NCBI GenBank assembly: GCA_963700285.1
Contig: CAVOXA010000001.1
Span: forward strand, 1,632,001-1,696,000
Direction: 5' to 3'
Origin: an uncultured Chloroflexia bacterium
GTDB taxonomy: Bacteria; Chloroflexota; Anaerolineae; JAAYZQ01
Length of the DNA: 64,000 bases
This document shows, in pieces, positions 13,966 to 32,123 of the stretch. Both the position numbers and the translations under genes were made by a program. Position 1 is the first letter of the stretch. Each line of letters starts with the position of its first letter. The notes beneath the pieces are model-generated. The model made no database searches, was not told the DNA's origin, and was given only the letters and a program-made list of their open reading frames with translations.

Positions 13966-13979
13966 AAGAAGTCAGCCTC

Positions 13980-14837: not shown

Positions 14838-14850
14838 GCTGCCGGTCCTT

Positions 14851-16575
14851 TCACTTTGGACTTGGAATGAAGCAGCTCGCCACTTCCTCAGGCGTAAGAA
14901 GGTTGTAGCCGTCCTGCTCTCCCCCGGTGAGATGCTGCGCCAACAGAACGGCTTGGGGAGGGCTGAGGAAGGTGGATCGCAGTACCTCGGTCTGATGATA
15001 CGCCTCACGGATGGGTGCATCGAGCAAGACTGTGCCTTTTCCCATGACGATGACGCGTTCTGCATAGTCGGGCATGAGGTAGAGGTGATGGGTGATCACG
15101 ATCACGGTCTTGCCCATCTCGTGCAACCGCTGGCTGACCTCCAGGATATACTTGGCGCCCTGGAAGTCTTGGCCAGTGGTCGGCTCATCAAAGATAATGA
15201 TATCGGGCTTCATGGCCAAAATGGCAGCGATCACGATCCGCGCCCGGTCGCCCTTGGGCAGCGAGAGAGGATGTTGCTGGCGTACTTCCAACAAGCCCAT
15301 GGACGCCAGGCTCTCCGTCGTGCGGGCCTCTACCTCGTCCTCGGGGTAGTCGAGGTTCACCAAAGCGAACTTGACTTCATCCTCAACCGTCGGATTAAAG
15401 ATCTGATTATCGGGGTTCTGAGCCACGTAGCCGATCTCTCGGGCCAGGCCGCTTACCGTCAGCTCCCGGGTATCGGTCCCAGCGACGACAACGTCCCCCT
15501 TGGTCGGTTCTAGCAGTCTAAGAAAGTGCTTGACGAGCGTGGTCTTGCCCGCGCCGTTCTGGCCTATGATGAGTACGTATTCACCAGCGTGGATGTCGAG
15601 GGATATGCCGTGCAGAGCCTCGGTTCCATCCGGGTAGGTGTGCTCTAGATCCTTTACCGATAGAAGTGGCTCGCCGCCCTGTACGGGGGGGTTGGGCGGT
15701 AAGTCAGGTGGTACCGGTTCGCAGCGGCCCTGCAAGTCATCGAGTGCGGCTATCCCCGGTTCCAACTGGACTGGGATGTTCGTCACAGGAGCACCGCCCT
15801 CGCGGGCCAGATAAAAAGTACTGGCCACCTGCGGTGGTCGGAGAAAGTGTTCCTCGAGGAGATCGATCTGAGAGTAGATCTCTTGCGGTGTGCCGGTGGT
15901 GACTAGACTGCCGTGGGAGAGCAGGGCCAGCCTGTCGGCGTACTCGGCCATCTCTTCGGCGGCGTGGCTGGTCATGACGATAGTCATTCCCAGGACCTTG
16001 TTCAGCTCGCGAACGGTGGCGAAAACCTCCTCCGTTCCGACCGGGTCGAGCTGGGAGGTGGGCTCATCCAGAATCAGGAGCTTGGGTGTCATGGCCAGGG
16101 CCGCGGCAATGGACAGGCGCTGCTTCTGACCTCCCGACAGTTCGTGGGGGTGTTTCTTCTCGGTACCCTCAAGGCGTACCGCTTCCAGGACGCGGGGGAT
16201 ACGCTCCAGAATCTGCTCGCGAGGCACGCATAGGTTTTCAAGGGCGAAAGCAATCTCATTCTCAACCGAGGTGGCAATAAGCTGCGTTTCAGGATCCTGA
16301 AAGACCGCCCCGACATGCCGAGCCATCTGGTTGATGGGGTTATCGAGCGTGTCTAGGCCTGCCACGGTCGCCTTGCCGAAAAAGCGTCCCTGATAAAACT
16401 GAGGTACGATACCGTTCAGGGTCAGGGAGAGCGTGGTCTTGCCTGCACCGGTTGGGCCGATGAGACCCAAGAATTCGCCCTGGTGGATCTCGAGGGAGAT
16501 GTCCTTCAGGACCGGCTCAAGGGAGCGTGGGTACATGTAGGACACGCTCTCCAGGGCAGCAATGACTTCTTTCAT
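14851..16575 (-). CDS. ECF transporter fused double ATPase (A-A')
   Basis: Two Walker A motifs (GPTGAGKT, GQNGAGKT), FQDPETQ/AQNPDNQ, LSGGQKQR and two DEPT motifs. Confidence 0.93.
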   Translation of the reverse strand: MKEVIAALESVSYMYPRSLEPVLKDISLEIHQGEFLGLIGPTGAGKTTLSLTLNGIVPQFYQGRFFGKATVAGLDTLDNPINQMARHVGAVFQDPETQLIATSVENEIAFALENLCVPREQILERIPRVLEAVRLEGTEKKHPHELSGGQKQRLSIAAALAMTPKLLILDEPTSQLDPVGTEEVFATVRELNKVLGMTIVMTSHAAEEMAEYADRLALLSHGSLVTTGTPQEIYSQIDLLEEHFLRPPQVASTFYLAREGGAPVTNIPVQLEPGIAALDDLQGRCEPVPPDLPPNPPVQGGEPLLSVKDLEHTYPDGTEALHGISLDIHAGEYVLIIGQNGAGKTTLVKHFLRLLEPTKGDVVVAGTDTRELTVSGLAREIGYVAQNPDNQIFNPTVEDEVKFALVNLDYPEDEVEARTTESLASMGLLEVRQQHPLSLPKGDRARIVIAAILAMKPDIIIFDEPTTGQDFQGAKYILEVSQRLHEMGKTVIVITHHLYLMPDYAERVIVMGKGTVLLDAPIREAYHQTEVLRSTFLSPPQAVLLAQHLTGGEQDGYNLLTPEEVASCFIPSPK

Positions 16576-16708
16576 AGATTCGCTCCAGGCACTGAACTGT
16601 GCCTGGGGAAGACGGGTATGGAACCCCGTCTCCCCCAAACATGCTGCTGGCCCAAGAGGCCAGCGGGTGTGGTTAGCAGAAACCCCCGTACCGTTTCTGT
16701 GGCAGTGC

Positions 16709-17491
16709 TTAATAGATGGCCCAGGTAGGCTTGACCAGGCCGATGGCTCGCAGGCCGGCGATGACGCCTGTACCGATGACCGTGCCGATCAAGCAACGCA
16801 TCAGGTTCTCGAAGGGGATGATGGGAATGAGCATGGTCCATACTTCTTCGGGCCAATTGAACATAAAGTATGTGATGCAGGAAGCCACCACGTGGGCAAT
16901 GCCCGAGATCATCCACGTACCCAGGAACAGGCCGAGAGCGGTCTTGGCCAAGCTCTTGTCGTTGATCCAGCGTGCAAATAGGGTCCGGGTCGGCAGGATC
17001 CACAGGATGATAGCCGACCAGTCGAGGAATGAGCCAGCAATGGCTGCATATGGGCTGACGCCGTTCTGGACAATTGCCCGGCCAGCGAACAGGACGTAAG
17101 CGATGATGAAAAGCACAGCCAACGGGATCCACCACTTTGTTCGCTCGTCCTTGATGACCATCGAACCAGCGGCAAAGCTGGCAATCGCAGCCCAGATCAT
17201 ACTAACGGCTGGTACTCCAGCGGTGTGGGGCGCCAAAAAGACACCTACCAGGGCGCCAATTCCGCTGGCGATCGCTCCGGCGATGGGTCCCAGCAGCCAG
17301 CCGACAAGGGCAAAGATGCCCTGGCTCATGGGGAAGCTGCCCCCAGAAGCCAAGATGACGGAGAAGGGGATGAAGGCCAGGGCGGTCACGACGGCCGCCA
17401 GCACGACGATGTAGGCAATGGGCGCTCCATCAATGGCCGCCCCACCCAGGAACTTGACTTCACGCTCTTGACCAGCAGGTGCCTCAGACAT
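16709..17491 (-). CDS. ECF transporter substrate-specific S component (substrate unknown)
   Basis: Highly hydrophobic with LLGPIAGAIASGIG; lies directly upstream of the ECF A-A' and T genes. Confidence 0.75.
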   Translation of the reverse strand: MSEAPAGQEREVKFLGGAAIDGAPIAYIVVLAAVVTALAFIPFSVILASGGSFPMSQGIFALVGWLLGPIAGAIASGIGALVGVFLAPHTAGVPAVSMIWAAIASFAAGSMVIKDERTKWWIPLAVLFIIAYVLFAGRAIVQNGVSPYAAIAGSFLDWSAIILWILPTRTLFARWINDKSLAKTALGLFLGTWMISGIAHVVASCITYFMFNWPEEVWTMLIPIIPFENLMRCLIGTVIGTGVIAGLRAIGLVKPTWAIY

Positions 17492-17676
17492 TTTTACTCC
17501 CTCCTTGGATGAAATATGACTTGCCCCGTTGCCAAGTCGCCCATGAATGTACCCAAATGCCGACTGTCATCACAAAGGTTAATGCATTGGCCCTCCTTTC
17601 TCTGTACCCCCTCATGCCCAGACCAAGACCCTATGGCCAGGAACTGGCGGAAAACCGGCAAAGCGTCACTCTTGGA

Positions 17677-18858
17677 TCAGGGAACTACCTCGTTCAACTC
17701 CTCCAGCAACCTGCGTTGGACCTCAGGGCCACAGCCACGTGACGCTGCCGCCTGGGCAATGGGTTCCCAATGGGGAACGGGCGTGTCCCGCCAGGGGATG
17801 CCATACGTGTCAAAGACCACGCGTGTCTCTGGCCACATCTCGGCCACAGCTCTGACGGCCATGAGGCGGCCGATGGGTTTGGCCACACCATCAGGGAGGA
17901 CGGTGGGCATTTGCTCTACACCCAGGCTGTCCTCTATGTCTTCTGTGTGCTCTGCGGCTGGCGGCTTTGGGGACACCACCATACCCAACAAGCGGGCGGC
18001 GTTGGCCCCCATGATATCCAGGTACACATCCTCATCTAGCCCCAGGGCATCGATCTCTTGCAGAAATGGTGCATAGCCGGGATTGCTCTGCTTGTCGGGA
18101 CAGATCAGGAGGGGATAGTCTGAACCGAACAGTATCTTTCTGTGGTCCACACACTGTAGCGCAACCTTCAAGATCTCTTCCGTCGGAAAGAGCAAAGGCG
18201 ACGCGGCCATGTCGTACCATACGTTCTCGAGATCTCGCTTCACCTCGGGCATGATCTCGTAGAAAAAGAGACCTCCACCCCAATGGGCCAAGATCAGCCT
18301 GAGCTCGGGGTAGCGTTGAGCCAACCGGTGAAATTGTCGCAGTGGAGTCGTGCTCTTGCCCAGGTAGTAATGACCGATCTCTTCGCTGACGTGCAGGTTC
18401 AGGGGCAGGTCAAGGTCGATACAGGCTTCCACAACTCGCGAAAAGTCGGGATCATCCAGCTCAAAGCCCTGACTATAAGCTCCCAGTTCCCCCACCCCCC
18501 GCATGCCAGCGTCGTAGCAGCGCTTGAGTTCATCGAGTGCTTTCTGTCCAGCCCTGGGCTGGATGACGGCAAACGGTATCACCCGTCCAGGAAAACGGCG
18601 GGCGATCTCGATGCCCTGGTCGTTCCTGGCAACGCAGTTGCTGTGGTTCTGCTGGCTCTCGCCCAAAAGCACCACATTGTCAATGCCGGCTCGGTCCATG
18701 TCGGCTAGCATGCGCTCGGGCGTCGCCCAGCCTTGCTCTGCATGGTTGGCTGCCTCTGGCGTGATCAAGAGGCCCCAATAAGGTTCTCGCTCGGCGAATC
18801 CTTCGAGATCCTCAACCATGGAGGGAGGTGTATAGTGCGCATGGACGTCGATTCGCAC
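17677..18858 (-). CDS. Amidohydrolase-family protein (Amidohydro_2-like) with C-terminal DUF1858/ScdA_N-like domain
   Basis: IDVHAH, AHWGGG and LFGSDYP; C-terminal AVRAVAEMWPETRVVFDTYGI...IAQAA. Confidence 0.8.
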   Translation of the reverse strand: MRIDVHAHYTPPSMVEDLEGFAEREPYWGLLITPEAANHAEQGWATPERMLADMDRAGIDNVVLLGESQQNHSNCVARNDQGIEIARRFPGRVIPFAVIQPRAGQKALDELKRCYDAGMRGVGELGAYSQGFELDDPDFSRVVEACIDLDLPLNLHVSEEIGHYYLGKSTTPLRQFHRLAQRYPELRLILAHWGGGLFFYEIMPEVKRDLENVWYDMAASPLLFPTEEILKVALQCVDHRKILFGSDYPLLICPDKQSNPGYAPFLQEIDALGLDEDVYLDIMGANAARLLGMVVSPKPPAAEHTEDIEDSLGVEQMPTVLPDGVAKPIGRLMAVRAVAEMWPETRVVFDTYGIPWRDTPVPHWEPIAQAAASRGCGPEVQRRLLEELNEVVP

Positions 18859-18924
18859 TGCAATCCTCCTGTGTGCGTGGTGCCCTGGCTCGGAACAGCG
18901 TCTAGTGTTCGACAGAGGCCTGAA

Positions 18925-19938
18925 CTAGCTCCTGGCAGCTGGGAAGAGCGACCTGGCGGCCGCAATGATGTCCTGTACACCGGGCAGGACAAAGTCTTCG
19001 AGAATCGGGCTGTAGGGCAGAGGTACGTTCCTGGCCGCCACTCGGGCGATGGGTCCATCCAGGTATTCGATGGCTTCCTCGGCCAACACCGCCGCGATCT
19101 CGGCCCCGGGACCCGACCGCCGGTGGGCCTCGTGGGCAATGATCACCCGGCTGGTCTTGGCCACAGATTGGATCAGTGCTTCCTTGTCCAGGGGTACCAG
19201 CGTGCGCGGGTCGATCACCTCGGTGCTGACCCCCTCCTCAGCCAGGGTTTCGGCCGCCTCCAACGCTTTGGGCACCATGGCGCCGATGGCGATGAGGGTC
19301 AGATCGCTGCCCTCGCGCAGCACCGAGGCTTGCCCAAAGGGGACCACAAAATCCGGATCTTGAGGCACAGGTCCTCGCTCGGCGTAGAGCATCTTGTGCT
19401 CAAAAAAGATCACTGGGTCCTCGCCCCGAATGGCCGACTTGAGCAACCCCTTGGCATCGGCGGGTGAAGTGGGCACGGCGAATTTGAGGCCCGGTACGTT
19501 CAAAAACCAGGACTCTGGGCTCTGGGAGTGTTGTGCCGCGGCCGACCCCGGAGCACCAGAGGTTACGCGGATGGTCAAGGGCACGCTGGCCTTGCCACCG
19601 CTCATAAAGCGGGCCTTGGCCACCTGGTTGACGATCTGATCGCCGGCACACATCAAAAAGTCGCCGAACATGATTTCGGCGATGGGGCGCATACCCATCA
19701 TCGCTGCGCCCAGCCCTGCGCCGACGATGGCAATCTCGCTGATGGGCGTGTCGCGCACTCGCTCCTCTCCAAATTCTTCCAGCATGCCGGCAGACACGCC
19801 CCAGACACCGCCAAAGGCGCCCACGTCCTCGCCGAACAAAAAGACACTGGCATCGCGGCGCATCTCTTCCACCATGGCTTCGCGTATCGCTTCAGAGAAC
19901 GAGAGTACTCTTGTGATCTCGTCTGTATTCTTTGACAT
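18925..19938 (-). CDS. TPP-dependent dehydrogenase E1 beta subunit (AcoB/PdhB-like)
   Basis: GEDVG, RVRDTPISE, AAQHSQ, DAKGLL and IDPRTL. Confidence 0.95.
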   Translation of the reverse strand: MSKNTDEITRVLSFSEAIREAMVEEMRRDASVFLFGEDVGAFGGVWGVSAGMLEEFGEERVRDTPISEIAIVGAGLGAAMMGMRPIAEIMFGDFLMCAGDQIVNQVAKARFMSGGKASVPLTIRVTSGAPGSAAAQHSQSPESWFLNVPGLKFAVPTSPADAKGLLKSAIRGEDPVIFFEHKMLYAERGPVPQDPDFVVPFGQASVLREGSDLTLIAIGAMVPKALEAAETLAEEGVSTEVIDPRTLVPLDKEALIQSVAKTSRVIIAHEAHRRSGPGAEIAAVLAEEAIEYLDGPIARVAARNVPLPYSPILEDFVLPGVQDIIAAARSLFPAARS

Positions 19939-19947
19939 AAAAGACCT

Positions 19948-20979
19948 CTAGAAGACCAGCCCGTCGTGGCTGTCGCCGTACACTCCCTGCAGCGCGTCGT
20001 CGGGCTGTGGCATGGATGCAGATTCGGCAAAGGCCACGGCATCGTCGAGCAGCCGCTGAACGTCTCTTTCGATTCCCTGAACCGCGGCCTCCTCGAGGAG
20101 GCCAGAATCCAGAAGCTGTTGCCGGAAGGCGGGGATGGGATCACGGGCCTGCCAGGCTTCCATCTCGCCGGGCGGGCGGTAGATCTGAGGGTCGCCCTCG
20201 TAGTGGCCGCGGTATCGATAAGTCTTGGCTTCGACAAAGGATGGCCCTTGCCCGGAACGGGCCCGCACGGCTGCTTCCCGGACTGTTTCATAGACGCTCA
20301 AGACGTCGTTGCCGTCCACAATGGTGCCCGGAAAGCCATATCCCTCGGCCCGCACCGCCAGGTCAGCGACGGGAGCTTGTTTTGATTGGGGCGTCCCTTC
20401 TCCGTACAGGTTATTCTCACAGAAAAAGACAACGGGCAACCCCCACAGACCAGCCAGGTTGGCGGCCTCGTGGAAGGCGCCTTCGTTCACAGCGCCGTCG
20501 CCAAAAAAGGACAGAGCGACGCGCTTCTCGCCGCGCATGGCAAAGGCAAGGGCCGCCCCGACGGCAATGGGGATGCCCCCGGCCACGATGCCGTTGGCGC
20601 CCAGGATGCCCAGATCAAAGTCAGCGATGTGCAGCGATCCGCCCCTCCCGCGGCAGTAGCCCTCGGAGCGGGCTGCCAGCTCTGCCATCATGAAGCGAGG
20701 ATCGCCGCCTTTGGCAATCAGGTGTCCGTGTCCGCGGTGGGTACTGGTGATCACATCCTCCGTGTCGAGCGCCATGCATGCGCCCACTGCGGTTGCTTCT
20801 TGCCCCACACAGGAATGAATAAAACCGGGGATCAGACCACCTCGGCGTTCCTTGATGGCCCGCAGTTCAAATTGTCGGACCATCGTCATGCGCCGGAATA
20901 TCTCTGCCAGGCGATCTGGGGAATAGGCTGTTAGGCAGCTCTTGGCTTCTGCTTCGTTATTGGGGTTATCTGTGGACAT
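19948..20979 (-). CDS. TPP-dependent dehydrogenase E1 alpha subunit (AcoA/PdhA-like)
   Basis: GFIHSCVGQEA, HRGHGH, GRGGSLH, TPP motif GDGA..N and TYRYRGH. Confidence 0.95.
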   Translation of the reverse strand: MSTDNPNNEAEAKSCLTAYSPDRLAEIFRRMTMVRQFELRAIKERRGGLIPGFIHSCVGQEATAVGACMALDTEDVITSTHRGHGHLIAKGGDPRFMMAELAARSEGYCRGRGGSLHIADFDLGILGANGIVAGGIPIAVGAALAFAMRGEKRVALSFFGDGAVNEGAFHEAANLAGLWGLPVVFFCENNLYGEGTPQSKQAPVADLAVRAEGYGFPGTIVDGNDVLSVYETVREAAVRARSGQGPSFVEAKTYRYRGHYEGDPQIYRPPGEMEAWQARDPIPAFRQQLLDSGLLEEAAVQGIERDVQRLLDDAVAFAESASMPQPDDALQGVYGDSHDGLVF

Positions 20980-21226: not shown

Positions 21227-21349
21227 GTTATCAGGCCCGAGCAAGCAGGATGCGGGATCAACTTCTATTTCCGGCCGAGATAAGGAGGTGGCGCGGCTAC
21301 GATAAACCAGTAGTGGTTCGATGAGCAGTGAGAAAGGAGCGATAGCACC

Positions 21350-24300
21350 GTGAAGATTAGGATGAGTATCCTCATTGGACTCGGAGCGGTCTTGATCTTG
21401 GCTGCAGCCTCCGGTCTGGTACTGGCCTCCGACGCCTCTCCTACTGAAGAACCGGCGAGTTCCCCTTTCTTCGATGTCACATTGCAACAAGCTGTGGATG
21501 AGCTGGACGGCAAAGCAAGGGTCGCTCGGACCGCAGCCCAAGCTGCGCCAACCCAGCACTACACCACCGATCCCAAGCTCTGGCCCGAGTGCGAGTTTGG
21601 TTTTACCCGTGACCTGCTCCAATGGCCTGGTTGCCACTACACCTCGGATCCCAACAATCCCAAGTGGAGCTGCGGCCCTGAAGATCCCCCCTGGCCGACC
21701 AAGGACTATACCTGGGATAGCGGACTCTGGCCCAAGGACTGCGGGAAGGAACTCACCCAGGATCCTGGCTTCTGGTGCGAGCCCACCTGGACGCGCGATC
21801 CAGAAAGATTCCCCCAATGTCGCTCCGACTATACCTCAAATCCCGAGGCGCTGAATTGGTGCCAGCCCCGCTATACCAGGGATCCCGCACAGTGGGACAA
21901 CTGCCCTACTGAGCCACCATTCTATACTGAAGACACAGCAGTTTGGAAAGAGTGTGATGCGGACGAATATACCAGCGACCCCTACCGCTGGAGCGAATGT
22001 CACTTTACGTCGGACCCAGGAAATCCGCACTGCATCGAACGGCCCTTCCCAACGCAGGACTATACCAGTAATCCCTTGACCTGGAAGGAGTGCGATCCAA
22101 GCTTCACCTGGGATCCGGCGCAGGTGCCCTGTGGAGATCCCAAGTACACCTCTGGCGATGCGTGGCCCTGGTGTGTCGATCCAGGCTATACCACCAACTC
22201 TGTCGAGTGGCACCTGTGCCATTTCACCTCTGATCCAAGAATGTGGCCGGATGCCTGTGGCGAGCCGTATGCGACCCAAGACTTTACCTGGGACAACAAG
22301 CTCTGGCCCAAGTCGTGTGGTGCGGAGCTGACCCGCGACCAGAACTTTTGGTGCGACCTGCGCTATACCACCGAACCGGGCGCGTGGCCCTGGTGTAATC
22401 CCGCCTGGACGTGGGATCCAGGCCAGGTCGTGTGTGCGCCCGGCTACACAAAGGACCCTGAAAGCTGGAAGGAATGCCGTGAGGGGCTGTATACACAGGA
22501 AGTGGGAGTCTGGCCGGCGTGCGAGTACTACACGGGCGATGCCCGTGTCTGGCCTGAATGCCACTATACCTCCGAGCCTGGCCTGTGGAAGGCTTGCGAC
22601 GAAGATCCGCCCTTTGCCACCAAGGACTATACGACCGATGCCGTGCTGTGGCCTGAGTGCGAACATCCCCCCGAGTACACCACGGACCCGACAGGCTGGC
22701 CGGAGTGCCACTATACTTATGACGCTCCTTTCTGGGCAGAATGCGAGCCTGTTCCGGGGGATTCCTCCGATCTGGGCGATGCCCCGGACAGCACCAACCA
22801 TGTCGGTAAAGCCATGACGGCCTATCCTGCGGGCGGGCCGCCGGGTGTTGGCGCCCGCTATCCTGCGGTCTTTGATCCCCTGACCGGTTTGCCCAAGGGC
22901 CCGCTGCACGTGCAGCCGCGGGCCGACTCTTGGCTGGGGGAGCGGGTAACCCTGGAAAAGGATGCCGACCAGTTGCCGGACGAAGACGCTGTGACCAATA
23001 TCGACCCGCGGACCGACACGCCCGATAGGGACAAGGCTGATGATGGTGCGAAGGTTCCCGTGCCGGCGCCTCACTGCGTGCGTACTGTGTTCAAGTACAC
23101 CGTCACGATCGCAGCGGGAGCGCCCAAGGTCGGCCGCTACGTCAATGTTTGGTTCGACTGGAACCGCGATGGCGATTGGGAGGATGCCTTCGAGTGCGCC
23201 AAGTCCGGGGATGCCCCCGAGTGGGCTGTGCAGAACCAGTTGGTCACTTTGGGTCCAGGTACCTATGTGCTAGAAACGCCGGCCTACCTGCCCTGGAATC
23301 CCCCGGGAGGCAATATCAGCGAGATCTGGATGCGTATATCCCTGGCCGACCAGGTGGCTCCCCGCGCCCCCGCGACCAGTCTAGCCGATGGGCGCGGCCC
23401 GGATGCTGGCTACAAGTACGGCGAAACCGAAGACTATTACTTTAAGCCATCCTGTCCCAAGCCTGTGGCCGACTTTGTCTGGGATCCAACCCCCGTCTGT
23501 GCCAAGCAACCCGTCTCCTTCCTGGATACCTCCACGAGCGCGCTTCCTCTGACGTGGTCCTGGGACTTTGATGGTCTCGGTAGCAGTAGCTTGCAGAACC
23601 CGACTTTCACCTTCAGCAGTGCTGGTACCTATGACGTGAGCTTGAAAGCGACCAATGCCTGTGGGCCTGATACAAAGACAAAAAGGGTACCCGTGATCGA
23701 CTGTCCGCCTCAGGATCCTGCCTATGACATTTATCTGAAGGACAACCTCGCCGATGACGGCTCTGTGCCCAGTACCGGTCCTTTCTGGCCGAGTCCTGAT
23801 ATCTGGGTTCGCAACGACGGGGACTGCACGGTAACCGCCCACCAAAACCCCATTGCCGGCAGCACGACGACGATCTGTGTCCGGGTCCGCAACCGCCTGG
23901 CCACAACAGTGGACAATATCACGGTCCAGGTTTACTATGCGAGTGCGGCCATGGGCCTCTCGTGGCCGGGGAGCTTTAGCCCTGTGGGTAGTCTGACGAT
24001 TGCAAGCCTGGCCGGAGGCGCCGTGACGGTCAAACCCGTCTCGTGGAGCGTGCCCGGTATTTCCGGCCATTTCTGCCTGCTAGCGCGGGCTAATGCACCC
24101 AAAGATCCCATCGGTAGTGGCACTGATACAGTCGCACCGGTTGACCACGTGCCGAACAACAACAACATCGCCCAGAAGAATCTCTATGCCGTTGACTATC
24201 CCCAAGTGACCCACTGTGGGTTCTTTAGTACCGCTGAGCACACGGACGTCGTCGTCTTTGATGCGGTCAATACCAAAGCGACAGCAACAGACGTAGACAT

Positions 24301-24628
24301 CGAGTTCGACAGCAACGATTTCCCGCCGGGCGGGGAACTGATTGTGGAGCCCGGAAGCCTCTGGGGACGGTGGACCACGCTGACCAACTTTGACCAGTCG
24401 GGGTCCACACTGCTGCCAACCGGCTTCCCGGCTACGATGGGTGGCGTTGAAATGACCGGCCATGAGGCAGCGTCGCTCACAATGACCATAACAGCCGAGA
24501 TCGACGAAAGCTTTACCATCAGTGTCACAGAGATTTCTGGGAGCAAGGCGGTGGGGGGCATCGTGTTCGTGCGCGACCTGCCTGACTGCGTGTATCTGCC
24601 GGTCATCATGAAAAAGACACAGCCGTAG
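21350..24628 (+). CDS. Large secreted/surface protein: Cys/Trp repeats, GEVED domain, PKD domain, DxGxxP-SPDIWV domain and C-terminal YLPxIMK motif
   Basis: Signal peptide; DLGDAPDS..WFDWNRDGDW..GETEDY (GEVED); PVADF..WSWDFDG..QNPTFTF..GTYDVSL (PKD); SPDIWVRN..NNNIAQKNL; terminal YLPVIMKK. Confidence 0.85.
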   Translation: MKIRMSILIGLGAVLILAAASGLVLASDASPTEEPASSPFFDVTLQQAVDELDGKARVARTAAQAAPTQHYTTDPKLWPECEFGFTRDLLQWPGCHYTSDPNNPKWSCGPEDPPWPTKDYTWDSGLWPKDCGKELTQDPGFWCEPTWTRDPERFPQCRSDYTSNPEALNWCQPRYTRDPAQWDNCPTEPPFYTEDTAVWKECDADEYTSDPYRWSECHFTSDPGNPHCIERPFPTQDYTSNPLTWKECDPSFTWDPAQVPCGDPKYTSGDAWPWCVDPGYTTNSVEWHLCHFTSDPRMWPDACGEPYATQDFTWDNKLWPKSCGAELTRDQNFWCDLRYTTEPGAWPWCNPAWTWDPGQVVCAPGYTKDPESWKECREGLYTQEVGVWPACEYYTGDARVWPECHYTSEPGLWKACDEDPPFATKDYTTDAVLWPECEHPPEYTTDPTGWPECHYTYDAPFWAECEPVPGDSSDLGDAPDSTNHVGKAMTAYPAGGPPGVGARYPAVFDPLTGLPKGPLHVQPRADSWLGERVTLEKDADQLPDEDAVTNIDPRTDTPDRDKADDGAKVPVPAPHCVRTVFKYTVTIAAGAPKVGRYVNVWFDWNRDGDWEDAFECAKSGDAPEWAVQNQLVTLGPGTYVLETPAYLPWNPPGGNISEIWMRISLADQVAPRAPATSLADGRGPDAGYKYGETEDYYFKPSCPKPVADFVWDPTPVCAKQPVSFLDTSTSALPLTWSWDFDGLGSSSLQNPTFTFSSAGTYDVSLKATNACGPDTKTKRVPVIDCPPQDPAYDIYLKDNLADDGSVPSTGPFWPSPDIWVRNDGDCTVTAHQNPIAGSTTTICVRVRNRLATTVDNITVQVYYASAAMGLSWPGSFSPVGSLTIASLAGGAVTVKPVSWSVPGISGHFCLLARANAPKDPIGSGTDTVAPVDHVPNNNNIAQKNLYAVDYPQVTHCGFFSTAEHTDVVVFDAVNTKATATDVDIEFDSNDFPPGGELIVEPGSLWGRWTTLTNFDQSGSTLLPTGFPATMGGVEMTGHEAASLTMTITAEIDESFTISVTEISGSKAVGGIVFVRDLPDCVYLPVIMKKTQP
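21560..22744 (+). repeat. 27 intragenic degenerate repeats [YFWL]-T-x-[DNE]-P-x-x-W-x-x-C
   Basis: Counted manually in the translation, from YTTDPKLWPEC to YTYDAPFWAEC; one Cys per unit. Confidence 0.9.
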
Positions 24629-24715
24629 TCAGGGGAGGAATACCCGGTCTCGATCTGTGATGTATGACCGCTGACAGCCACCGGACGCATGAGCCGGTGG
24701 CTGTTTCTGTATCTC

Positions 24716-25471
24716 TCAGCGTTGGCTGGCCAGCCCGCCCGCTATCTCGCCGCCGTCGATGACAAAGGACTGTCCGGTGATAAATCCCGCGTCGTCGGAG
24801 GCCAGGAAGGCAAAGAGCGCGGCCACATCCTCGGGACGGCCCAGCCTGTTCAGCGGCAGCTTGCTGGCGAAGGACTGTTGCATCTCCAGCGTGTATTCGG
24901 CTTCCTGCATGGGCGTCAGGATGAAGCCGGGGCATACGGCGTTCACCCGAACCGAGGGTCCCAATTCCAGCGCCATGGAGCGGGTTAGCTCGATGACGCC
25001 GGCTTTCGAGGCGTTATAGTCGGCATAGTAGGGATAGCCCATCAGGCCGTTGGTCGAGCCCATGTTCAGGATGACGCCGCCCTCCCCCGCCAGCATCCGG
25101 CGCGCTGCTTGCTGGGCGACATAGAACACGCCATTCAGGTTGACGTCGATCACCCTGCGCCATTCATCGGGCGTGATATCGACAAAGGGATGGCGGATGC
25201 TGATCCCTGCGTTGTTGATCAGGATGTCCAATCCCCCAAGCAGTACCGTCCAGTTCGTCAAAGGCTCGGGCCACGTCCTCGGGCGTCGGCGACATCGGCC
25301 TGGATGCTGCCGCTCAAGGCAAGCTCACCCTCCATGCTGCGCTGAGGCTGTCTCTGTCGCGGTCCAGTACGACCACCCGGCCCCTTCCTCCAAGAAACGG
25401 ACCGTCGTCGCCCTGCCGATGCCACCCGCTCCGCCGGTGATCAGGACGCGTTTGTCTCTTAGACCCCGCAT
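24716..25471 (-). CDS. SDR-family oxidoreductase, frameshifted in its 5' part
   Basis: MRGLRDKRVLITGGAGGIG at 25471; NNAG and YNASK in a different frame; indels at about 25250-25400. Confidence 0.8.
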
Positions 25472-25561
25472 GGAATTCTCCTTGCCGCAGCCTTGGTCTG
25501 TCTCAAGCGTCTCCTGTCCCGGGAAACGTCACGACTTGTCTCTGTCTTTCGTCGCGCTCCC

Positions 25562-26603
25562 TCAGCGCAGTATGAATCCATCGCGCAGGGGATCCTCCGG
25601 GTCGATCAGGAATTCGTGCCGGCCCGTGATGTGTGCCGAGCCCTCGACCTCTGGGATGATGGCCGGGTATGGGACCAAAGGTCGTCGTCTCCACGATGCG
25701 GCCGGTGAAAGCGGCTGCCGATGATGCTCTCGACGACCATCGGTCTCGCCGAAGCCGATCTCCCCGCGCGCATGGTGGATGGCCAGCCGGCCGCTGACGC
25801 CCGTACCGGTCGGGCAGCGATCCACCTCACCCTCGGCAAAGACGCAGACGTTGCGGCTGTGGGCTCCCTCATCCAGCGGCGGTCCGATAAAGATGGTGCC
25901 ATAGAGAAAGCTCAGGTCCTCCTCAAAGGGATGAGGGATGGGCCGGCTGGCCATGATCGCCCGCTTGATGGCGACGCCCTTTTCGATGATGGCGCCGGAA
26001 ATCCTCCGGCGTGCAGGTCAGGCCGACGTCCTCGGCCTGCACGTAGGCGTAGAAGGCGCCGCCAAAGGCCAGGTCGTAGCGTACCTGGCCCAGGCCCGGC
26101 ACCTCGACCGTCTCGTCCAGGGCCAGGACAAAGGAGGGCACGTTGTGAAAGCGGACGCTCGCCACCTGCCCACCGGCGACCCGGGCGTGGGCCGTGACCA
26201 GCCCGGCCGGGGTGTCGATCCTGATGGTCGTCTCGGGTGCCGTCATGGGCAGCAGGCCGGTCTCCAGGGCCACCTTGGTGATGCCGATGATGCCGTGCCC
26301 GCACATGGTGCTGTAGCCTTCGTTGTGCATGAACAGCACGCCGATGTCCGCCTCGGGGCTGACCGGCGGCGTGACGATGCAGCCATACATGTCGGCGTGG
26401 CCCCGCGGCTCCCACATCAGCGCCGTGCGCAGGTGGTCCAGGTTCTCCCTGGCATAGCGGCGGCGGGCCAGGATGGTGTCGCCCGGCAGCTCGGGATAGC
26501 CCCCGGTGATGACCCGGAAGGGTTCGCCCGCGGTGTGGGCGTCGATGGTGGTGATCTTGAGCCAGTCCTCTGGGGGTGTCCAATCTGTCATCTTGTTCAG
26601 CAT
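25562..26603 (-). CDS. Proline racemase family, Cys/Thr type (trans-3-hydroxy-L-proline dehydratase-like), frameshifted
   Basis: IDAHTAGEPFR, LMWEPRGHADMYG, STMCGHG, DLAFGGAFY, VDRCPTGTG and DPEDPLRDGF, spread over several frames; RBS GGGAGG. Confidence 0.85.
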
Positions 26604-26673
26604 CTCGCACCTCCCATTGACCTCGGTCGTTTCGACGAGTCGCAGGCTCACGAGCTCTCCGAGGCCCGCGTAG

Positions 26674-27440
26674 CTAACCCGCCAAGCCACCGCCGTCCAC
26701 CACCAGGGCCGTGCCGGTGACAAAGGATGCTGCGTCGCTGGCCAGGTAGAGGGCCGCCTGGGCGATGTCCTCCGGCCTGCCGATGCGCTGCAGCGGCCGG
26801 TCGGCCGCCTCGGCCAGGAACTGCTCATCCGCCTGGCCCAGCTGTCGCGCCTCGCTGCGCAGCATGGGGGTGTCGGTGTCGCCGGGACAGATGCAGTTGA
26901 CGCGGATGTTCTGCTCTCCATGGTCGAGGGCCATGGCCCGGGTCATGTTCACCACGGCTCCCTTGGAGGCGCAGTAGGAGACCGCGTTGCGCCCGCCGAC
27001 CAGCCCCCAGCCGGAGGCTGTGTTGATGATGACGCCGCCGCCGGCCTTGGCCATCACCGGGATGGCGTACTGGCTCAGCAAAAAGATCGACTTGACGTTG
27101 ACGGCCATGACCCGGTCCCACTCCTCCTCGGTGATGTCCAGGACGGTGGTCCGCCGGATGATGCCCGCGTTGTTGACCAGGATGTCCAAGCGCCCAAAGG
27201 TGGTCCACGGTCTGCTGCACGGCGCGCCGACAGTCGTCTGTGCGCGTGACGTCACAATGTATGAAAAGGCCGCTGGCTCGCCTCTGGACAGGATCTCCTG
27301 TACGACGGCCTGCCCGCCCGCTTCGTCCAGATCCACGACGGCAGACGGCTGCACCTTCGCGGGCGAACAGTAGGGCCGTCGCCCGGCCGATGCCCGATGC
27401 CGCCGCCAGTGATAAGGGCGACCTGTTTTCTCAGTAGCAC
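26674..27440 (-). CDS. SDR-family oxidoreductase, frameshifted in its 5' part
   Basis: GTG start, KQVALITGG..GIG, LVNNAG, YCASK and CPGDTDTPML. Confidence 0.8.
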
Positions 27441-27558
27441 AGTGCTCTCCTTGGTCTGTGTCCTACGACCTGGCCGTTGAAGGGCAGAAAACGTAGAATC
27501 AATGGACTCAATTAGGACTTTTGACCCTTGAGTAGGGTGCGACAGGTTTGAGCGCCAT

Positions 27559-27581
27559 GCATCGGGTCCGTGACCCGATGC
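27559..27581. other. Perfect 10-bp intergenic hairpin
   Basis: GCATCGGGTC-cgt-GACCCGATGC. Confidence 0.5.
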
Positions 27582-27621
27582 GAGCGACCTATACCTGCAT
27601 ACTTGTTGGTGCGAAATAGCA

Positions 27622-28813
27622 CTAGGCGGACACCTTGCGGACGGCGTGCTCGTGATAGCCGGTGACAACAGTGACATAACCGCTCAGCGCTTCATCCAGG
27701 ACGGTGTCGCCGGTGTCTACCAGCAGAGGCTTGCCGCCCAGCGCATTGAGCTTTTCCTTGGTGCCCACGACGACAATGTTCTCCCATGGTCTGGACGTAC
27801 CGTCACCGCTGGAAAGGCTGGCGCCAGCGGCTCGAATGACCCTGGGACTGATCTGCTGATTTCCCCGACCAAAGATGTAACCCCTGACCGCCGATGAGAG
27901 TGACGATGATCTTGGCCCTGGCCATACCTGTCCAACAGGTCCAGGAGCTCTGCTTCGTTGGCATCCGCCTGGACCAGTCTTCCCCTTAGTCCCTTCGCTC
28001 ATCGCTGTCAGCATCCGGAAGACGTCCACGCCCAACAGCGTCTTCTCCAGGCCCAATTCGTCGGCGATGGCCCGGGTCGTGGTCCCTGGACCGACAATGT
28101 ACAGCACAGTCGTCCTCCATCCGCTCCACGACGTCCTCGGCGATGGCAGTCAATGAGCTGCTGCCGCCGATGCTGGCCGTCTTTTGGTTCTGTACCAGGC
28201 TGGTCCGGAAGGGGATCTTGAGGTAGCCATAGAGCTTGGCCGAGACCGTTCCCGCTGGCGGAAGGCCTCCTCGTCGATGTCCATGACCTCGGCCTCCTCG
28301 CAGGCTGGTTACCCGGCCCTGGAGGTACAGGGCCGCCAGGCTGCCCGCGCTGGCCGGGTTGGTGGCATAGACTGCGGAATGGATCTTGACCCCGGCCGGG
28401 ATGCCGAGAGCGGGCAGATCCTCACCGATGGCCCGGTAGATGTCCCGGGCGGTGCCGTCCCCGCCGGCAAAGAGCAAGAGATCGATGCCGGCGCGCAGCA
28501 TCTCCCGAGCAGCCTCCCTGGTGTCCTGTGCCGTGGTTGCCCCCGATACGATTCGGCCGATGACCGTGGGCTCAAAGCCGCCGGCCCGTGGCTGCATCCT
28601 CCCCCATCTCGCCCGGATAGGTGATGAGGTCCAGATTCTGGCACAGATCTGAGGCGTTCTAGAGCCTGCGCGGCGCGGCTTGAGGCCTGGGGCACAGCTC
28701 CCAGTTCCAGCGCCCTCTCCTGGATCTCGGCTCCATCGCTGCCCTTCAGCCCGACCCTGCCCCCGATCCCAGCGAGGGGATTGACAATCAGACCCAGCTT
28801 GCTTGCGTCCCAT
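27622..28813 (-). CDS. ATP-NAD kinase / AcoX-like family protein, frameshifted
   Basis: [54 protein letters not shown] and LLVDTGD across frames. Confidence 0.8.
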
Positions 28814-30418
28814 TATCCCCCTCTGCCTATCGCCGGAGCTTCTTCTGAGTATGCCCGCCAGGTCACGGCCCAGCGAGCCGGGTCATCCAGGGGAGCGTGG
28901 TCCACGGTGTGGATGGTACTGTTGTGGGGTGCGGTCCTGACCATCTCTGGATCGGGCGCGCCTCCTCTGCGACGTGGGCCAGGATGCTGGCGTATTCGTC
29001 CAGCTCATCTTTGGAGTACGACTCCGTGGGTTCCAACGTGCAGGGTTCGGGCACGACGAAGGGATGGTGGCTGGTCCAGTAGTGGATGCCAAAATCGGCT
29101 GCCCGCAGGCCAATTTCCTCAGAATGCACCCCCGTCTCTTCCGCCAATTCCTGCCAGCTATAGCGAACCTGCTCGATGCGGCGCTTGCCCTTGGCGTAGG
29201 GGGCGCCAGCGCCAGGGATCTCCAGAATCTTTTTCAGAAGGTAGTTGTTGTTCAGGACGGCAATCTCGGCCACCTCCCGAAGGCCCTCAGCGCCGAGGCT
29301 CATGGCCCATGCGTAGGCCTTGAGGATGACGGTGGCGTTGCCGTACCAGGGCCCGATCTTGCCTATGCTGTTGGGGCGGTCAAAGTCCAGATAGTAGCGC
29401 TGACCATCGTACTGGACGACAGGTACGGGCAGGAAGCGGCTCAGTTCTTCGGACACGCCGGCGGCGCCAGCGCCCGGACCGCCGCAACCGTGGGGCGTGG
29501 AGAAGGTCTTGTGCAGGTTAAAGTGGCAGAGGTCAAAGCCGGCATCTCGCGCCCGGGTGATGCCCAGGATCCCGTTGGCGTTGGCTTGATCGTAGCAGCA
29601 CAACCCTCCCGCCTGGTGCACCACGTCCACGAATTCGGCAATCCGGGGGCTATAGATGCCGGTATCCTCGGGGTTGGTGATGAACAGAGCGGCTGTCCGG
29701 TCCGATACGGCCGTTTTCAGCGCTTCCAGATCCGGGTATCCGTCGTCGTCGGGATAGAGGGTAATAACCTTGTATCCGGCGGTTCGGGCGCAGGCGGCGT
29801 TGGAAGGATGGGAAAAGATGGTGGTGATGACCTCGTCCCGCTGCTCTTTTTCCCGGCGGGACTCGTGGTAGGCGCGGACGATGGAAACATTGGTATAGAT
29901 GGCGGCCGACCCGGCGCCTGGCTGCAGTGAGAAGCGGTTCATGCCCGAGATTTCTTTGAGAATACTGCTCAAAGCGATACATGATCTCCAGGATCCCCTG
30001 CACCGTCTCAGCATCCTGCAGGGGGTGGAGTTCCGTTGCCTTTGGGGATCTGGCCAGTTGATCGTTGATCTTGGGGCTGTATTTCATGGTGCAGGTACCC
30101 TGGCCGACGTCGATGTTCAGGTCCGCGCCCAGATTCTCCTGGGACAGCCGGACATAGTGTCTCAGCACCTGCGGTTGGCCAAGCTCCGGCAGGGCTGGCG
30201 CCTGCTTCCGGCGCAGGCCCTCGGGGAGGGTCAGCCAGGACATCCCCAACCTCATCTCTGATCCCCTGCTCCACCTCTGGTACCAGGATGCCTCGCTGCC
30301 CTGTCTGGCTCAACTCAAAAATGACAGGTTCATCCCACTTGGCTTGGTGGTACCGCCGGAGGTTTAGTTTTCCATTGGTGAATCTGTGGGCACTGATGTC
30401 AACGGTGTCCTGGCTCAT
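28813..30418 (-). CDS. gcvPB: Glycine dehydrogenase (aminomethyl-transferring) subunit 2-like, frameshifted
   Basis: GTCTMKYSP, HPLQ, LQPGAG, HPSNAA, TNPEDTG, PLP lysine in NLHKTFSTPHG.GGPG, and EPTES. Confidence 0.85.
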
Positions 30419-31816
30419 TGTTCGATGACCTCCTGCAGCGCATCCACCAGTTGGTGGATGTCTGCCTGGGTGTGAACTTCGGTGACGCAGTACAGGGCGC
30501 TTTGGCCCAGCTCCGGGAAGCTCCTGGCTCAGGTCCTTACCGCCCAGAATCCCTTTGGCCAGCAGTGCTTTGTTGATCTCCGCGACTGTCTTACCAGTTC
30601 TGTCAAGGTTGACGACGAATTCCTGAAAGTGGGGCGCTTGGAGCAAGGGGGCCTTGACTCCGTTGAGCTTGTTCATCTGCAGCATGGCGTAGCGCGTCCT
30701 GGCCATGATGCCCTCGCCGATCTCTACCATGCCCTGGGGTCCCATGAGCGCAAGATAGACGCCAGCCGTGATGCCCCACAGCGCAGCGGCCGTGCCGACC
30801 CATTCCTTGCCCTTTTCCCTGACTGCGAAGGAGGTTCTGTCGTAGGCAACGTCGCCAAAGCCATATTCGCCTGGAACCTTCGTGGGCGCGATGCCAAAAA
30901 GCCGCGACGGGTACTCCATCACATAGGCCTCCTCGTCCCGCGTGGCGATAAAGCCGGCCTGGCCGCCGCCGAACTGCATGTGCATGCCCAGCGGTTGGAT
31001 GTCGCCACAGACGATGTCGGCGCCATAGTCCGCCGGCGGTGTGAGGATGCCCAGCGACATCGGATTGGCGCCGACAACACACACTGCGCCGTACTCGTGG
31101 GCGATGCGCGAGATCCCCTCACCTTGTGTTTCGAGGGCACCCAGGTAGGAAGGGTTCTCAAAGTAGACGGCGGCTGTCTGGTCGGAGATTGCAGCTTGCA
31201 GGGCATCCAGATCCAACTGCCCCGTCTGCGGATCGTATTCGGCGAGACGGAGCTGCATGGTCGGCTGGCAATAGTCCTCGATCTTGGCTAGCTTGGCCCG
31301 GCTGATGGTCCCGCAGATCAGCGCCTCGGGCCGGCCTGTGAGGCGCGAAGCCATGCGCAATGAGGTGGCCGTGGCCTGGAATCCGTCGTAGGTGGGCACG
31401 TTGACGACGTCCATGTTCAAAAGCTCGCCCATCATGCTCGAGTATTCGAATAGCGCCTGGAAACGACCGTGATCGTCGTAGGGCTCGCCGGCATAGGCAG
31501 TCAGGAACTCGCCCCGGCTGTTCACCTCGTCGCAGACGGCGGGCACGTGATGCTGGTAGCATCCGGCTCCCAGGAAGCAGAGAAGCTCCCCGCAGGTCTG
31601 ATTCCTGGCCAGCAAGCCCTCCACGTGCCGTTTCAAGGCGTACTCTGACAGGAAGGGTGGAGGCAGGTTCATGGGCTCTGTGAGCCTTAGCTCCTCTGGA
31701 ACGTCCTCGTAGAACTCTTCCATGCTCTTTGCCTTGACGGCCTTGAGCATCTGTTCCTTGACTTCTGGCGCAGAATTGGGGATGTAGGGATGTGCCCTTG
31801 TTTCGGATCTATCCAT
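30415..31816 (-). CDS. gcvPA: Glycine dehydrogenase subunit 1-like, frameshifted near its 3' end
   Basis: HPYIPN, FLGAGCYQH, EFLTAY, QALFEY, GADIVCGDIQPLG and REKG; CVTEVH in the shifted frame; ATGA overlap with gcvPB. Confidence 0.88.
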
Positions 31817-32123
31817 CGCTGATTCCTCCACGCATGTCTCTATCGAGTCCTAGCCCATGGCGCTTTGCCCAAAATGGGAAGGGGCCACACATGGTGGCCA
31901 GCACCGGTGAGCCCCCTTTTCGGCCAGGATCCTGTTGATGTGCTCCCGATGCACGCTTGGTGCGGCCTGACCGCGGCAAATGAAAGGCGCTGGCCAGGCT
32001 GCTATGCCAGGCTCATTGTAGCACAGGTCCTGTGAAAAGGGAAAACGGCATCCTTGCCCTTAAGATACGGTGCCCAGCAGCCCTTTGCTGGACTTCCAGC
32101 CGTTCTTTCTTTTTGTGCTGGGT

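What the first reader, a model, noticed from the sequence alone, without database searches (positions are those of the whole stretch)
21560..22744. Unrecognised 27-unit Cys/Trp/Thr-Asp repeat domain in a secreted GEVED-PKD protein
Seen: about 395 aa made of 27 units [YFWL]TxDPxxWxxC, each with one Cys and nearly all with a Trp. There is higher-order duplication: CHYTSDP..TKDYTWD..LWPK.CG.ELT.D..FWC occurs twice, and CH[YF]TS[DE]P..P[FWY].T[KQ]D[YF]T four times. I recognise no family. Inference: a new solenoid or fibre fold. The regular Cys ladder in a probable anaerobe suggests a metal/thiolate array or disulfide zipper, and the Trp/Tyr ladder could bind glycans or support electron hopping. 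The domain is displayed on GEVED/PKD stalks with a Chloroflexi-type YLPxIMK terminal motif.
Basis: partly seen in the sequence, partly recalled or inferred. Interest (0 to 1): 0.8.

Follow-up and report, generated by a model that had tools for sequence, protein, structure and literature searches.

The report
Threonine-cysteine repeat protein, likely ring-stapled
This secreted bacterial protein carries 27 threonine-to-cysteine units behind a conserved tag and occurs in the same genomes as an undescribed pair of membrane proteins, which likely staple each unit into a ring outside the cell, a kind of protein modification that would be new if experiments confirm it.

Summary
The repeat is real: 27 units and 27 Cys in a 1092-aa secreted protein, with no Pfam, NCBIfam or PDB match; the family is confined to Chloroflexota relatives.

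It is probably not a stand-alone Cys solenoid.
- In 23 homologues, 626 of 628 Cys have a Thr 7-13 residues upstream (450 at exactly 9).
- Single units come and go, so Cys parity is free.
- A helix after the signal peptide is the best-conserved segment.
- Two paralogous 11-TM proteins with outward DUF4350/GIFT domains occur in the same 5 of 23 family genomes; they are adjacent in three and on another contig here.
- In Phycisphaerae, KSB1 and archaea the pair flanks unrelated Thr/Cys arrays; many share the tag and begin with a spare Thr or end with a spare Cys.

Best reading (0.45): the pair links Thr(i) to Cys(i+9) as a thioether outside the membrane. The chemistry is inferred, not shown. The scan noted this system before on other DNA (two AI notes). 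This Trp/Asp cargo class is new and shows the register without overlap.

The parts
21350..24628 (+). Whole gene, 1092-aa secreted Thr/Cys-repeat protein (the cargo); single copy in the genome
   Evidence: near-identical contigs of three sediment metatranscriptomes lie on it
21350..21430 (+). Predicted Sec signal peptide (aa 1-27: basic start, hydrophobic core, VLA/S cleavage-like site, no twin Arg)
   Evidence: read from the sequence; same layout in homologues; no predictor was run
21431..21514 (+). Conserved tag or leader (aa 28-55; core SSPFF..TLQQAVDELDGK at 21458-21514), predicted amphipathic helix and likely recognition site for the membrane pair
   Evidence: column conservation 0.93 vs 0.68 for the repeat; a matrix from four KSB1 cargo tags ranks it first of 29,974 ORFs
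21560..22744 (+). 27 units [YFW]-T-x-D-P-x-x-W-P-x-C, Thr mostly 9 residues before Cys, arranged in macro-repeats with CH and an extra PTx[DH] threonine
22769..23443 (+). GEVED-type domain (aa 474-698; Pfam PF20009 at 597-698), shared with many unrelated secreted proteins
23459..23695 (+). PKD domain (aa 704-782), optional in homologues
23717..24592 (+). Conserved C-terminal region of about 290 aa with no Pfam match
24593..24625 (+). YLPVIMKK tail, a motif that ends 44 ORFs of this genome; possible sorting signal
   Evidence: function untested

Best explanation
The repeat is likely the substrate of a dedicated pair of membrane proteins, predicted to bind the conserved tag after export and to join each threonine to the cysteine about nine residues downstream, giving a chain of 27 thioether rings on a surface protein. 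SHOWN: the Thr-to-Cys register, the tag, the co-occurrence and the gene adjacency in relatives. The pair (G000 contig C14, 576170-581292, both genes intact) consists of two paralogues, each with 11 predicted membrane helices and two DUF4350/GIFT domains. INFERRED: Sec export and signal cleavage leave the tag at the N-terminus; both GIFT domains face outward; the first GIFT domains carry the conserved polar residues (G-[DE]-H-T, D-S, D-[ST]-T) and act as catalysts; the Thr hydroxyl is activated, probably with a membrane-derived donor because there is no ATP outside, is eliminated to dehydrobutyrine, and the Cys thiol adds to it (methyllanthionine-like). Each ring would hold Asp-Pro and display a Trp, making a stiff, reduction-proof, aromatic and acidic N-terminal arm on the GEVED/PKD body, most plausibly for adhesion or matrix building in sediment.
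For: (1) Register. In 23 homologues 626 of 628 Cys-ended units have a Thr 7-13 aa upstream (606 at 8-10, 450 at 9), while the previous-Cys-to-Thr distance runs from 2 to 22; at [YF]Xx[DN] sites X is Thr 467 times and Ser once of 476. Cys outside the repeat have Thr at -8 to -10 in only 23 of 143 cases. (2) Units are independent: single-unit indels and free Cys parity. (3) Co-occurrence. Cargo and pair are in the same 5 of 23 family genomes, 3 of 16 genera, and are divergently adjacent in G001, G003, G017 and a metagenome contig. This gene is the only clear Thr-Cys run protein in its genome. (4) Generality. A Thr-Cys array lies in 20 of 25 pair loci and 11 of 15 KSB1/archaeal pair loci. Of 68 control loci 2 were flagged: one shadow ORF, and one real cargo in a genome that has the pair. 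(5) Array ends. Phycisphaerae TxCP heptad arrays start with a spare Thr nine residues before the first Cys in 10 of 11 proteins and 28 of 34 (re)starts, with Pro at +3 as here; 13 of 13 intact TC-type arrays end in a Cys without its own Thr, 5-8 aa after the last Thr. (6) Tag. A matrix from four KSB1 cargo tags ranks this tag first of 29,974 ORFs (42.25 vs 30.75); an HMM of 16 foreign tags also ranks it first (E 0.19); the reverse HMM's best non-family hit among 21,228 ORFs is a KSB1-phylum cargo (E 0.27). (7) The pair looks enzymatic: confident model (pLDDT 92.9), outward GIFT domains by Lys/Arg bias, His/Asp/Glu/Ser/Arg conserved from bacteria to archaea.
Against: No chemistry was observed. 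The characterised GIFT-fold matches (IFT52, OST48, glycosidase accessory domains) are, from my own knowledge, not catalytic, and no lanthipeptide-type domain was found in the pair. Strict Thr use is unlike lanthipeptides, which accept Ser (own knowledge). How a hydroxyl would be activated outside the cell is unexplained. Ring size would have to vary between cargo classes (about 5-11 residues). Each protein has about five extra conserved Thr (109 of 111 sites) with no Cys partner. The tag match is weak by HMM: a KSB1-only HMM did not list this protein in its top 8, and the family HMM gave E 1.9 for one KSB1 cargo and missed two. Most Phycisphaerae heptad cargos show no such N-terminal tag by eye. 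5 of 25 and 4 of 15 pair loci had no cargo in the stretch held. The genomes are related, so the counts overstate independence. In this genome pair and cargo are unlinked.
Confidence: 0.45

Rival explanations
1. The pair modifies these units covalently, but not by a methyllanthionine ring. It may transfer a lipid-derived group (sugar, phosphoglycerol, acyl) to Thr and/or Cys, or link Cys sulfur to the Thr methyl carbon as in Cys-Thr ranthipeptides.
For: All co-occurrence, tag and register evidence fits. Thr-only use fits chemistry at the methyl group. The membrane domain of protein b has conserved H129, E172, Y215 and R219, and a GIFT domain occurs in the oligosaccharyltransferase subunit OST48.
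Against: Simple decoration does not explain the spare Thr at array starts and spare Cys at array ends. No radical-SAM or glycosyltransferase domain was found in the pair or beside the cargo.
Confidence: 0.25
2. One reading: the repeat is an unmodified fold held by disulfides or metal-thiolate sites, Thr-x-Asp-Pro being a structural turn, and the pair is only a chaperone, exporter or assembly factor (GldG-like).
For: GIFT domains of solved structure are scaffolds (roles from own knowledge); weak GldG similarity. The low-confidence model places short helices after TxDP. Conserved Cys pairs elsewhere in the protein suggest that disulfides do form.
Against: Free Cys parity and single-unit indels. 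Thr is almost never replaced by Ser, Val or Asp, as a capping residue would be. The same Thr-to-next-Cys rule holds in arrays of period 4, 6, 7 and about 14 that cannot share one fold. No VKOR in the genome (89% complete; DsbB not searched).
Confidence: 0.2
3. The pair and this protein are only co-inherited, and the repeat works alone as an adhesin tip.
For: Unlinked in this genome, and a DNA contig bridges the upstream junction without mismatches; three related genera are few independent events.
Against: Unrelated Thr/Cys arrays flank the pair in two other bacterial phyla and in archaea, and their tag finds this protein first in its genome.
Confidence: 0.07
4. The C-X(12-15)-CH stretches bind c-type hemes through an unusual motif, making a multiheme wire.
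For: Five CH per protein, strongly conserved; the genome has cytochrome c assembly proteins.
Against: No CxxCH; 22 of 27 Cys lack His; His is replaced by Tyr, Arg, Glu or Thr at some sites; no heme lyase nearby; other cargo classes lack CH.
Confidence: 0.03

Closest known systems
Lanthipeptides (LanB/LanC, LanM, LanKC, LanL synthetases; methyllanthionine from Thr + Cys)
   Same: Leader-like tag before a core in which each Thr is followed by a Cys; predicted Thr-to-Cys thioether rings (class features from own knowledge and search listings).
   Different: The substrate is a 1092-aa Sec-secreted multidomain protein; the predicted enzymes are 11-TM GIFT proteins facing outward; no Lan enzyme nearby; Thr only; tag not evidently removed.
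Ranthipeptides (SCIFF/thermocellin) and the QhpC subunit of quinohemoprotein amine dehydrogenase
   Same: Cys-Thr thioether is known (Cys32-Thr37; PMC8172795, passages read); thioether stapling of a protein subunit.
   Different: Made by cytoplasmic radical-SAM enzymes, with Cys before Thr in thermocellin; here Thr precedes Cys, no radical-SAM gene flanks the cargo, and the partner is a membrane pair.
DUF4350/GIFT proteins (GldG, IFT52, OST48, arCOG01314)
   Same: Domain family and fold. PMC5898192 (one passage read) describes arCOG01314 as a single-TM anchored component of a predicted secretion or membrane-remodelling complex.
   Different: Here two GIFT domains sit on an 11-TM scaffold, in a fixed paralogue pair with conserved polar residues and Thr/Cys-array neighbours.
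Exosortase/archaeosortase (PF09721)
   Same: Protein b helices 2-5 and the outer loop align weakly (HHalign probability 12.9%, E 0.002), and a membrane Arg is invariant.
   Different: The catalytic Cys is absent; protein a does not align; the genome has a separate true exosortase.
GEVED-containing fibrillar adhesins (CshA type)
   Same: Passenger domain N-terminal to GEVED, near the tip of a secreted multidomain protein (PMC10952558, passages read).
   Different: The passenger is a Thr/Cys repeat rather than CshA NR2; no long repetitive stalk.
Cys-Xaa-Xaa-Xaa repeat radical-SAM targets (TIGR04117)
   Same: One archaeal cargo of the pair matches weakly, below cut-off (E 5e-4).
   Different: The window's repeat does not match; the cargos have signal peptides and sit by the membrane pair.

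Membership tests
Lanthipeptide | Core with Ser/Thr and Cys placed for ring formation | tested here: met
   626 of 628 units have Thr 7-13 aa before Cys; Thr only, which is atypical
Lanthipeptide | Leader peptide recognised by the synthetase | tested here: inconclusive
   Conserved tag shared with foreign cargos; binding not tested
Lanthipeptide | LanB/C, LanM, LanKC or LanL enzyme encoded with the precursor | tested here: not met
   None among neighbours of four loci and the window; genome search for PF05147 empty but its control was silent too
Lanthipeptide | (Methyl)lanthionine present in the product | not testable with these tools
   needs mass spectrometry
Ranthipeptide/sactipeptide | Radical-SAM/SPASM maturase next to the precursor | tested here: not met
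   none flanking the cargo; AmmeMemoRadiSam A/B genes lie 6 kb away in one locus only; genome-wide SPASM not searched
MNIO (DUF692)-modified secreted Cys proteins | DUF692 enzyme in the genome | tested here: not met
   PF05114 not found in G000 (89% complete); control rang in 1 of 14 genomes
Multiheme c-type cytochrome | CxxCH motifs | tested here: not met
   no C-x(1-4)-CH in the protein
Exosortase (pair proteins) | Profile similarity over the membrane domain | tested here: inconclusive
   b: probability 12.9%, E 0.002; a: 0.08%; no PF09721 hit at the pair locus
Exosortase (pair proteins) | Catalytic Cys in the Cys-Arg-His triad | tested here: not met
   no conserved Cys in the membrane domain of a or b
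DUF4350/GIFT domain (pair proteins) | PF14258/PF23355 above cut-off and GIFT fold | tested here: met
GEVED fibrillar adhesin | GEVED domain with signal peptide | tested here: met
   PF20009 E 1e-9
GEVED fibrillar adhesin | CshA NR2 adhesive domain and repetitive stalk | tested here: not met
   no such Pfam hit; one optional PKD

The most novel reading that the evidence does not exclude
A tag-directed, ATP-independent enzyme pair on the outer face of the membrane staples dozens of Thr-Cys thioether rings into large secreted proteins across bacteria and archaea. This Trp/Asp repeat is the non-overlapping cargo class that reveals the i-to-i+9 register, and its five extra threonines may be cross-linked to the five conserved histidines. 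Such rings would be a reduction-proof substitute for disulfides in anoxic sediments.
Probability: 0.4. Interest if true: 0.93.

Novelty: categorically new. Interest (0 to 1): 0.78.

Why it matters
The thioether-forming enzymes I know of (lanthipeptide synthetases, radical-SAM maturases; own knowledge) work in the cytoplasm, mostly on short peptides. A membrane pair that does this after export, on 400-residue arrays of variable ring size, would be a new class of post-translational machinery and would give the GIFT/DUF4350 fold a catalytic role. It could also be a tool for stapling secreted proteins. This cargo is a good first test case: its rings do not overlap, each has a Trp for detection, and acidic residues allow clean protease mapping. 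Literature searches found no description of the repeat or the pair; the library lacks most subscription papers.

Tried and rejected
- Pfam, NCBIfam, PDB sequence and ESM Atlas searches on the repeat were blank.
- AlphaFold of the repeat (29 rows) failed, pLDDT 40, so no fold search was run on it.
- Tandem Repeats Finder sees no DNA-level array here.
- Cys-rich Planctomycete GEVED proteins (L015, L020, L026 and others) looked related by Cys count but are tandem ~130-aa domains of another kind.
- A graspetide reading (PFF-like tag, Thr/Asp; motif recalled, not from a call) was dropped: no ATP-grasp gene nearby and Cys is the invariant partner.
- Exosortase membership was not supported.
- Foldseek of protein b returned only GIFT-type matches and nothing for the membrane domain; a VIA-align wide search had not finished.
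- The complex prediction of tag with pair was not available, so binding is untested.
- RNA: contigs of three sediment metatranscriptomes lie on the cargo gene, but those runs were selected with this gene, and only one 151-nt contig lay on 5.5 kb of the pair locus; this gives no ranking of expression and no evidence of co-expression.
- One weak Chloroflexota hit (G314, E 6e-22) had no match to either pair protein at E 1e-15 and was left out of the counts; L182 (2.8 kb) was not scanned.
- The order-level search returned the same 23 genomes as the family.

Full report
OBSERVATION. The stretch 21560-22744 is aa 71-465 of a 1092-aa ORF (21350-24628, +) lying alone between minus-strand metabolic operons. 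It has 27 units and 27 Cys; the unit pattern scores 27 against a shuffled mean of 1.35 and maximum of 7. Pfam sees GEVED and PKD downstream and nothing on the repeat; NCBIfam, PDB and the ESM Atlas are blank. There is no paralogue in the genome.

FAMILY. The word-index search gave 23 proteins including this one, at 39-75% identity for the others. The HMMER search of 1.84 billion representatives gave only 10, all of this family. Records with names are Chloroflexota/Anaerolineae. All complete ones share signal peptide, a conserved helix, the repeat, the GEVED-type domain, an optional PKD, a C-terminal region and a YLP tail; one carries the repeat on phospholipase-D-like domains. AlphaFold gave no usable model of the repeat (pLDDT 40).

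GRAMMAR OF THE REPEAT. In 23 homologues with a complete repeat, 626 of 628 Cys-ended units hold a Thr 7-13 residues before the Cys: 450 at 9, 606 at 8-10. The two exceptions are an extra CxxC. The distance from the previous Cys to that Thr runs from 2 to 22, so the Thr is tied to the downstream Cys. At [YF]Xx[DN] sites X is Thr 467 times and Ser once in 476. Outside the repeat only 23 of 143 Cys have a Thr at -8 to -10. Whole single units are gained and lost (24-29 Cys), and total Cys is even in 9 and odd in 8 of 17 full-length proteins, so no fixed disulfide pattern is conserved. Every array begins with a Thr unit and ends on a Cys, although 5 of 23 linkers after the last Cys contain some Thr. 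About five further Thr per protein (PTx[DH]; 109 of 111 sites) have no Cys partner; their number matches the five CH sites. The helix at aa 38-55 is the most conserved segment (0.93 vs 0.68 for the repeat and 0.76 for GEVED).

THE PARTNER. In G001, G003 and G017 and on one metagenome contig, the gene is divergent from two tandem ~830-aa membrane proteins with DUF4350/GIFT domains. Among 23 family genomes the cargo is in 5 and the pair in the same 5 (3 of 16 genera). These genomes are kin and 71-95% complete, so this is not an independent test. In the window's genome the pair is intact on contig C14 (576170-581292). A DNA contig bridges the junction upstream of the cargo without mismatches, so the separation looks real. 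Four further cargo proteins share source and contig length with a protein-a homologue (6527, 6505, 5453, 7391 nt), a hint of adjacency only. The pair is sporadic and wide: 566 homologues of b among 7999 candidates scored, 2 of 401 sampled Chloroflexota, 6 of 50 GEVED-selected genomes (50 of the 72 such loci were given), 13 of 301 in the class of a Phycisphaerae genome, 4 of 167 in the phylum of a KSB1 genome and 16 of 251 in an archaeal class.

OTHER CARGOS. A run of at least 8 Thr-Cys units lies in 20 of 25 pair loci (some redundant). Three of the five blanks are 6.5-kb contigs, and two of those genomes hold a cargo elsewhere. Of 68 control loci 2 were flagged, one a shadow frame and one a true cargo in a genome with the pair. 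With a run of at least 6, 11 of 15 KSB1 and archaeal loci have one. These cargos differ in sequence: TxCP heptads (up to 112 units), xxxxTC hexads, xxTC tetrads. Heptad arrays start with a spare Thr nine residues before the first Cys in 10 of 11 proteins and 28 of 34 (re)starts; their profile T-x-C-P parallels T-x-D-P here. All 13 TC-type arrays with an intact end (15 examined) finish with a Cys lacking its own Thr. The window's protein is thus the version without the intervening Cys, where the i-to-i+9 pairing can be read directly.

THE TAG. KSB1 cargos carry SSPLFxxSLxxSIxxLEG-like helices and archaeal ones [ST]PL[FY]-led helices right after the signal peptide. A matrix from four KSB1 tags ranks the window's tag first of 29,974 ORFs (42.25, next 30.75), and an HMM of 16 foreign tags ranks it first at E 0.19. 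A KSB1-only HMM did not list it in its top 8. The reverse HMM finds one KSB1-phylum cargo as best non-family hit of 21,228 ORFs (E 0.27) but is weak on three others. Most Phycisphaerae heptad cargos show no such tag by eye.

THE PAIR. AlphaFold models protein b confidently (pLDDT 92.9, pTM 0.93): nine membrane helices, GIFT, two helices, GIFT. Lys/Arg alternation puts both GIFT domains outside in a and b (crude estimate). The first GIFT domains of a and b are paralogous (HHalign 99.6%) and share G[DE]HT, DS and D[ST]T. His, Asp, Glu, Ser and Arg columns hold from bacteria to archaea, with H129, E172 and R219 in the membrane part of b. Structure searches return only GIFT folds such as IFT52 and OST48. 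Exosortase similarity is weak and the catalytic Cys is missing. The genome gave no LanC (control silent), VKOR or DUF692 hit, but has cytochrome c assembly proteins and a true exosortase elsewhere.

MECHANISM. Shown: register, tag, co-occurrence, adjacency and fold. Inferred: export, tag binding, activation and elimination of the Thr hydroxyl, and thiol addition to give 27 serial rings (0.45). Another covalent chemistry by the same pair (0.25) and an unmodified disulfide or metal fold with a chaperone pair (0.20) remain. Contigs of three sediment metatranscriptomes lie on the gene; in one run all eight listed pieces fall within 21241-24666. This suggests transcription, but the runs were chosen with this gene.

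PAPERS AND PRIOR NOTES. PMC10952558 (GEVED), PMC5898192 (DUF4350) and PMC8172795 (ranthipeptides) were read as passages only; other papers were seen as search listings; no supplements were opened. Searches found no description of the repeat or the pair. Two earlier AI notes of this scan describe the pair with Thr-Cys cargos on other DNA. I had reached the pair and a foreign cargo before reading them, took from them the lead on array ends and on a shared tag, and tested both here.

VERDICT. Real and undescribed; most likely a new cargo class of an undescribed outside-the-membrane Thr/Cys modification system. Interest 0.78.

Noticed in passing
window 21551-22744: Each macro-repeat has a CH and an extra, almost invariant Thr (PTx[DH]YT; 109 of 111 sites), about five of each per protein. 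The extra Thr could stay dehydrated or link to His; His-butyrine links are known from a lanthipeptide (PMC10206099, listing only).
   Followed up: partly
G000:C14:581309-582076; L090:99-863: A metallophosphoesterase-like ORF (judged by eye from a DTGDAL motif) converges on the 3' end of the pair in two genera; it could belong to the system.
   Followed up: no
P0020: The same repeat, N-terminally incomplete, is fused to carboxypeptidase-regulatory-like and phospholipase-D-like domains with a YLP tail, so the array is a movable module.
   Followed up: no
G000, many contigs (cluster at C10:1651000-1702000): 44 ORFs end in [YF]LPx[IVL]x[KR], many of them large; a probable Chloroflexota sorting motif with no family model found and no paper in one search.
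   Followed up: partly
L146:10527-13244; L142:6573-9008; L144/L145: Phycisphaerae cargos with up to 112 consecutive TxCP units, and 1650-aa cargos whose arrays restart many times, each time with a spare Thr.
   Followed up: partly
L215-L225 (archaeal class of G484): Archaeal secreted xxTC-array proteins with a [ST]PL[FY] tag beside the pair in 9 of 13 loci; one matches TIGR04117 weakly.
   Followed up: partly
L115:12713-14008: Cargo with a different unit (CTxGxD), 42 Cys in a run and a C-terminal membrane anchor with a basic tail.
   Followed up: no
window 24700-31900; G001:C6:37950-42500: SDR, proline-racemase-like and glycine-cleavage-P-like genes look frameshifted here against G001, and the pair genes are in pieces in G001; probably assembly indel errors.
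   Followed up: no
L015, L020, L026, L038, L040, L053, L070, L071: Planctomycete secreted proteins with 3-5 tandem ~130-aa Cys-rich domains before the same GEVED-type domain and a dockerin-like tail; unrelated to this repeat.
   Followed up: partly
window 11744-20979: Minus-strand 2-oxoacid/acetoin dehydrogenase E1-alpha, E1-beta and E2 genes, an amidohydrolase, a pterin-binding-like protein and an ECF-type transporter; ordinary metabolism, not conserved beside the cargo in relatives.
   Followed up: partly
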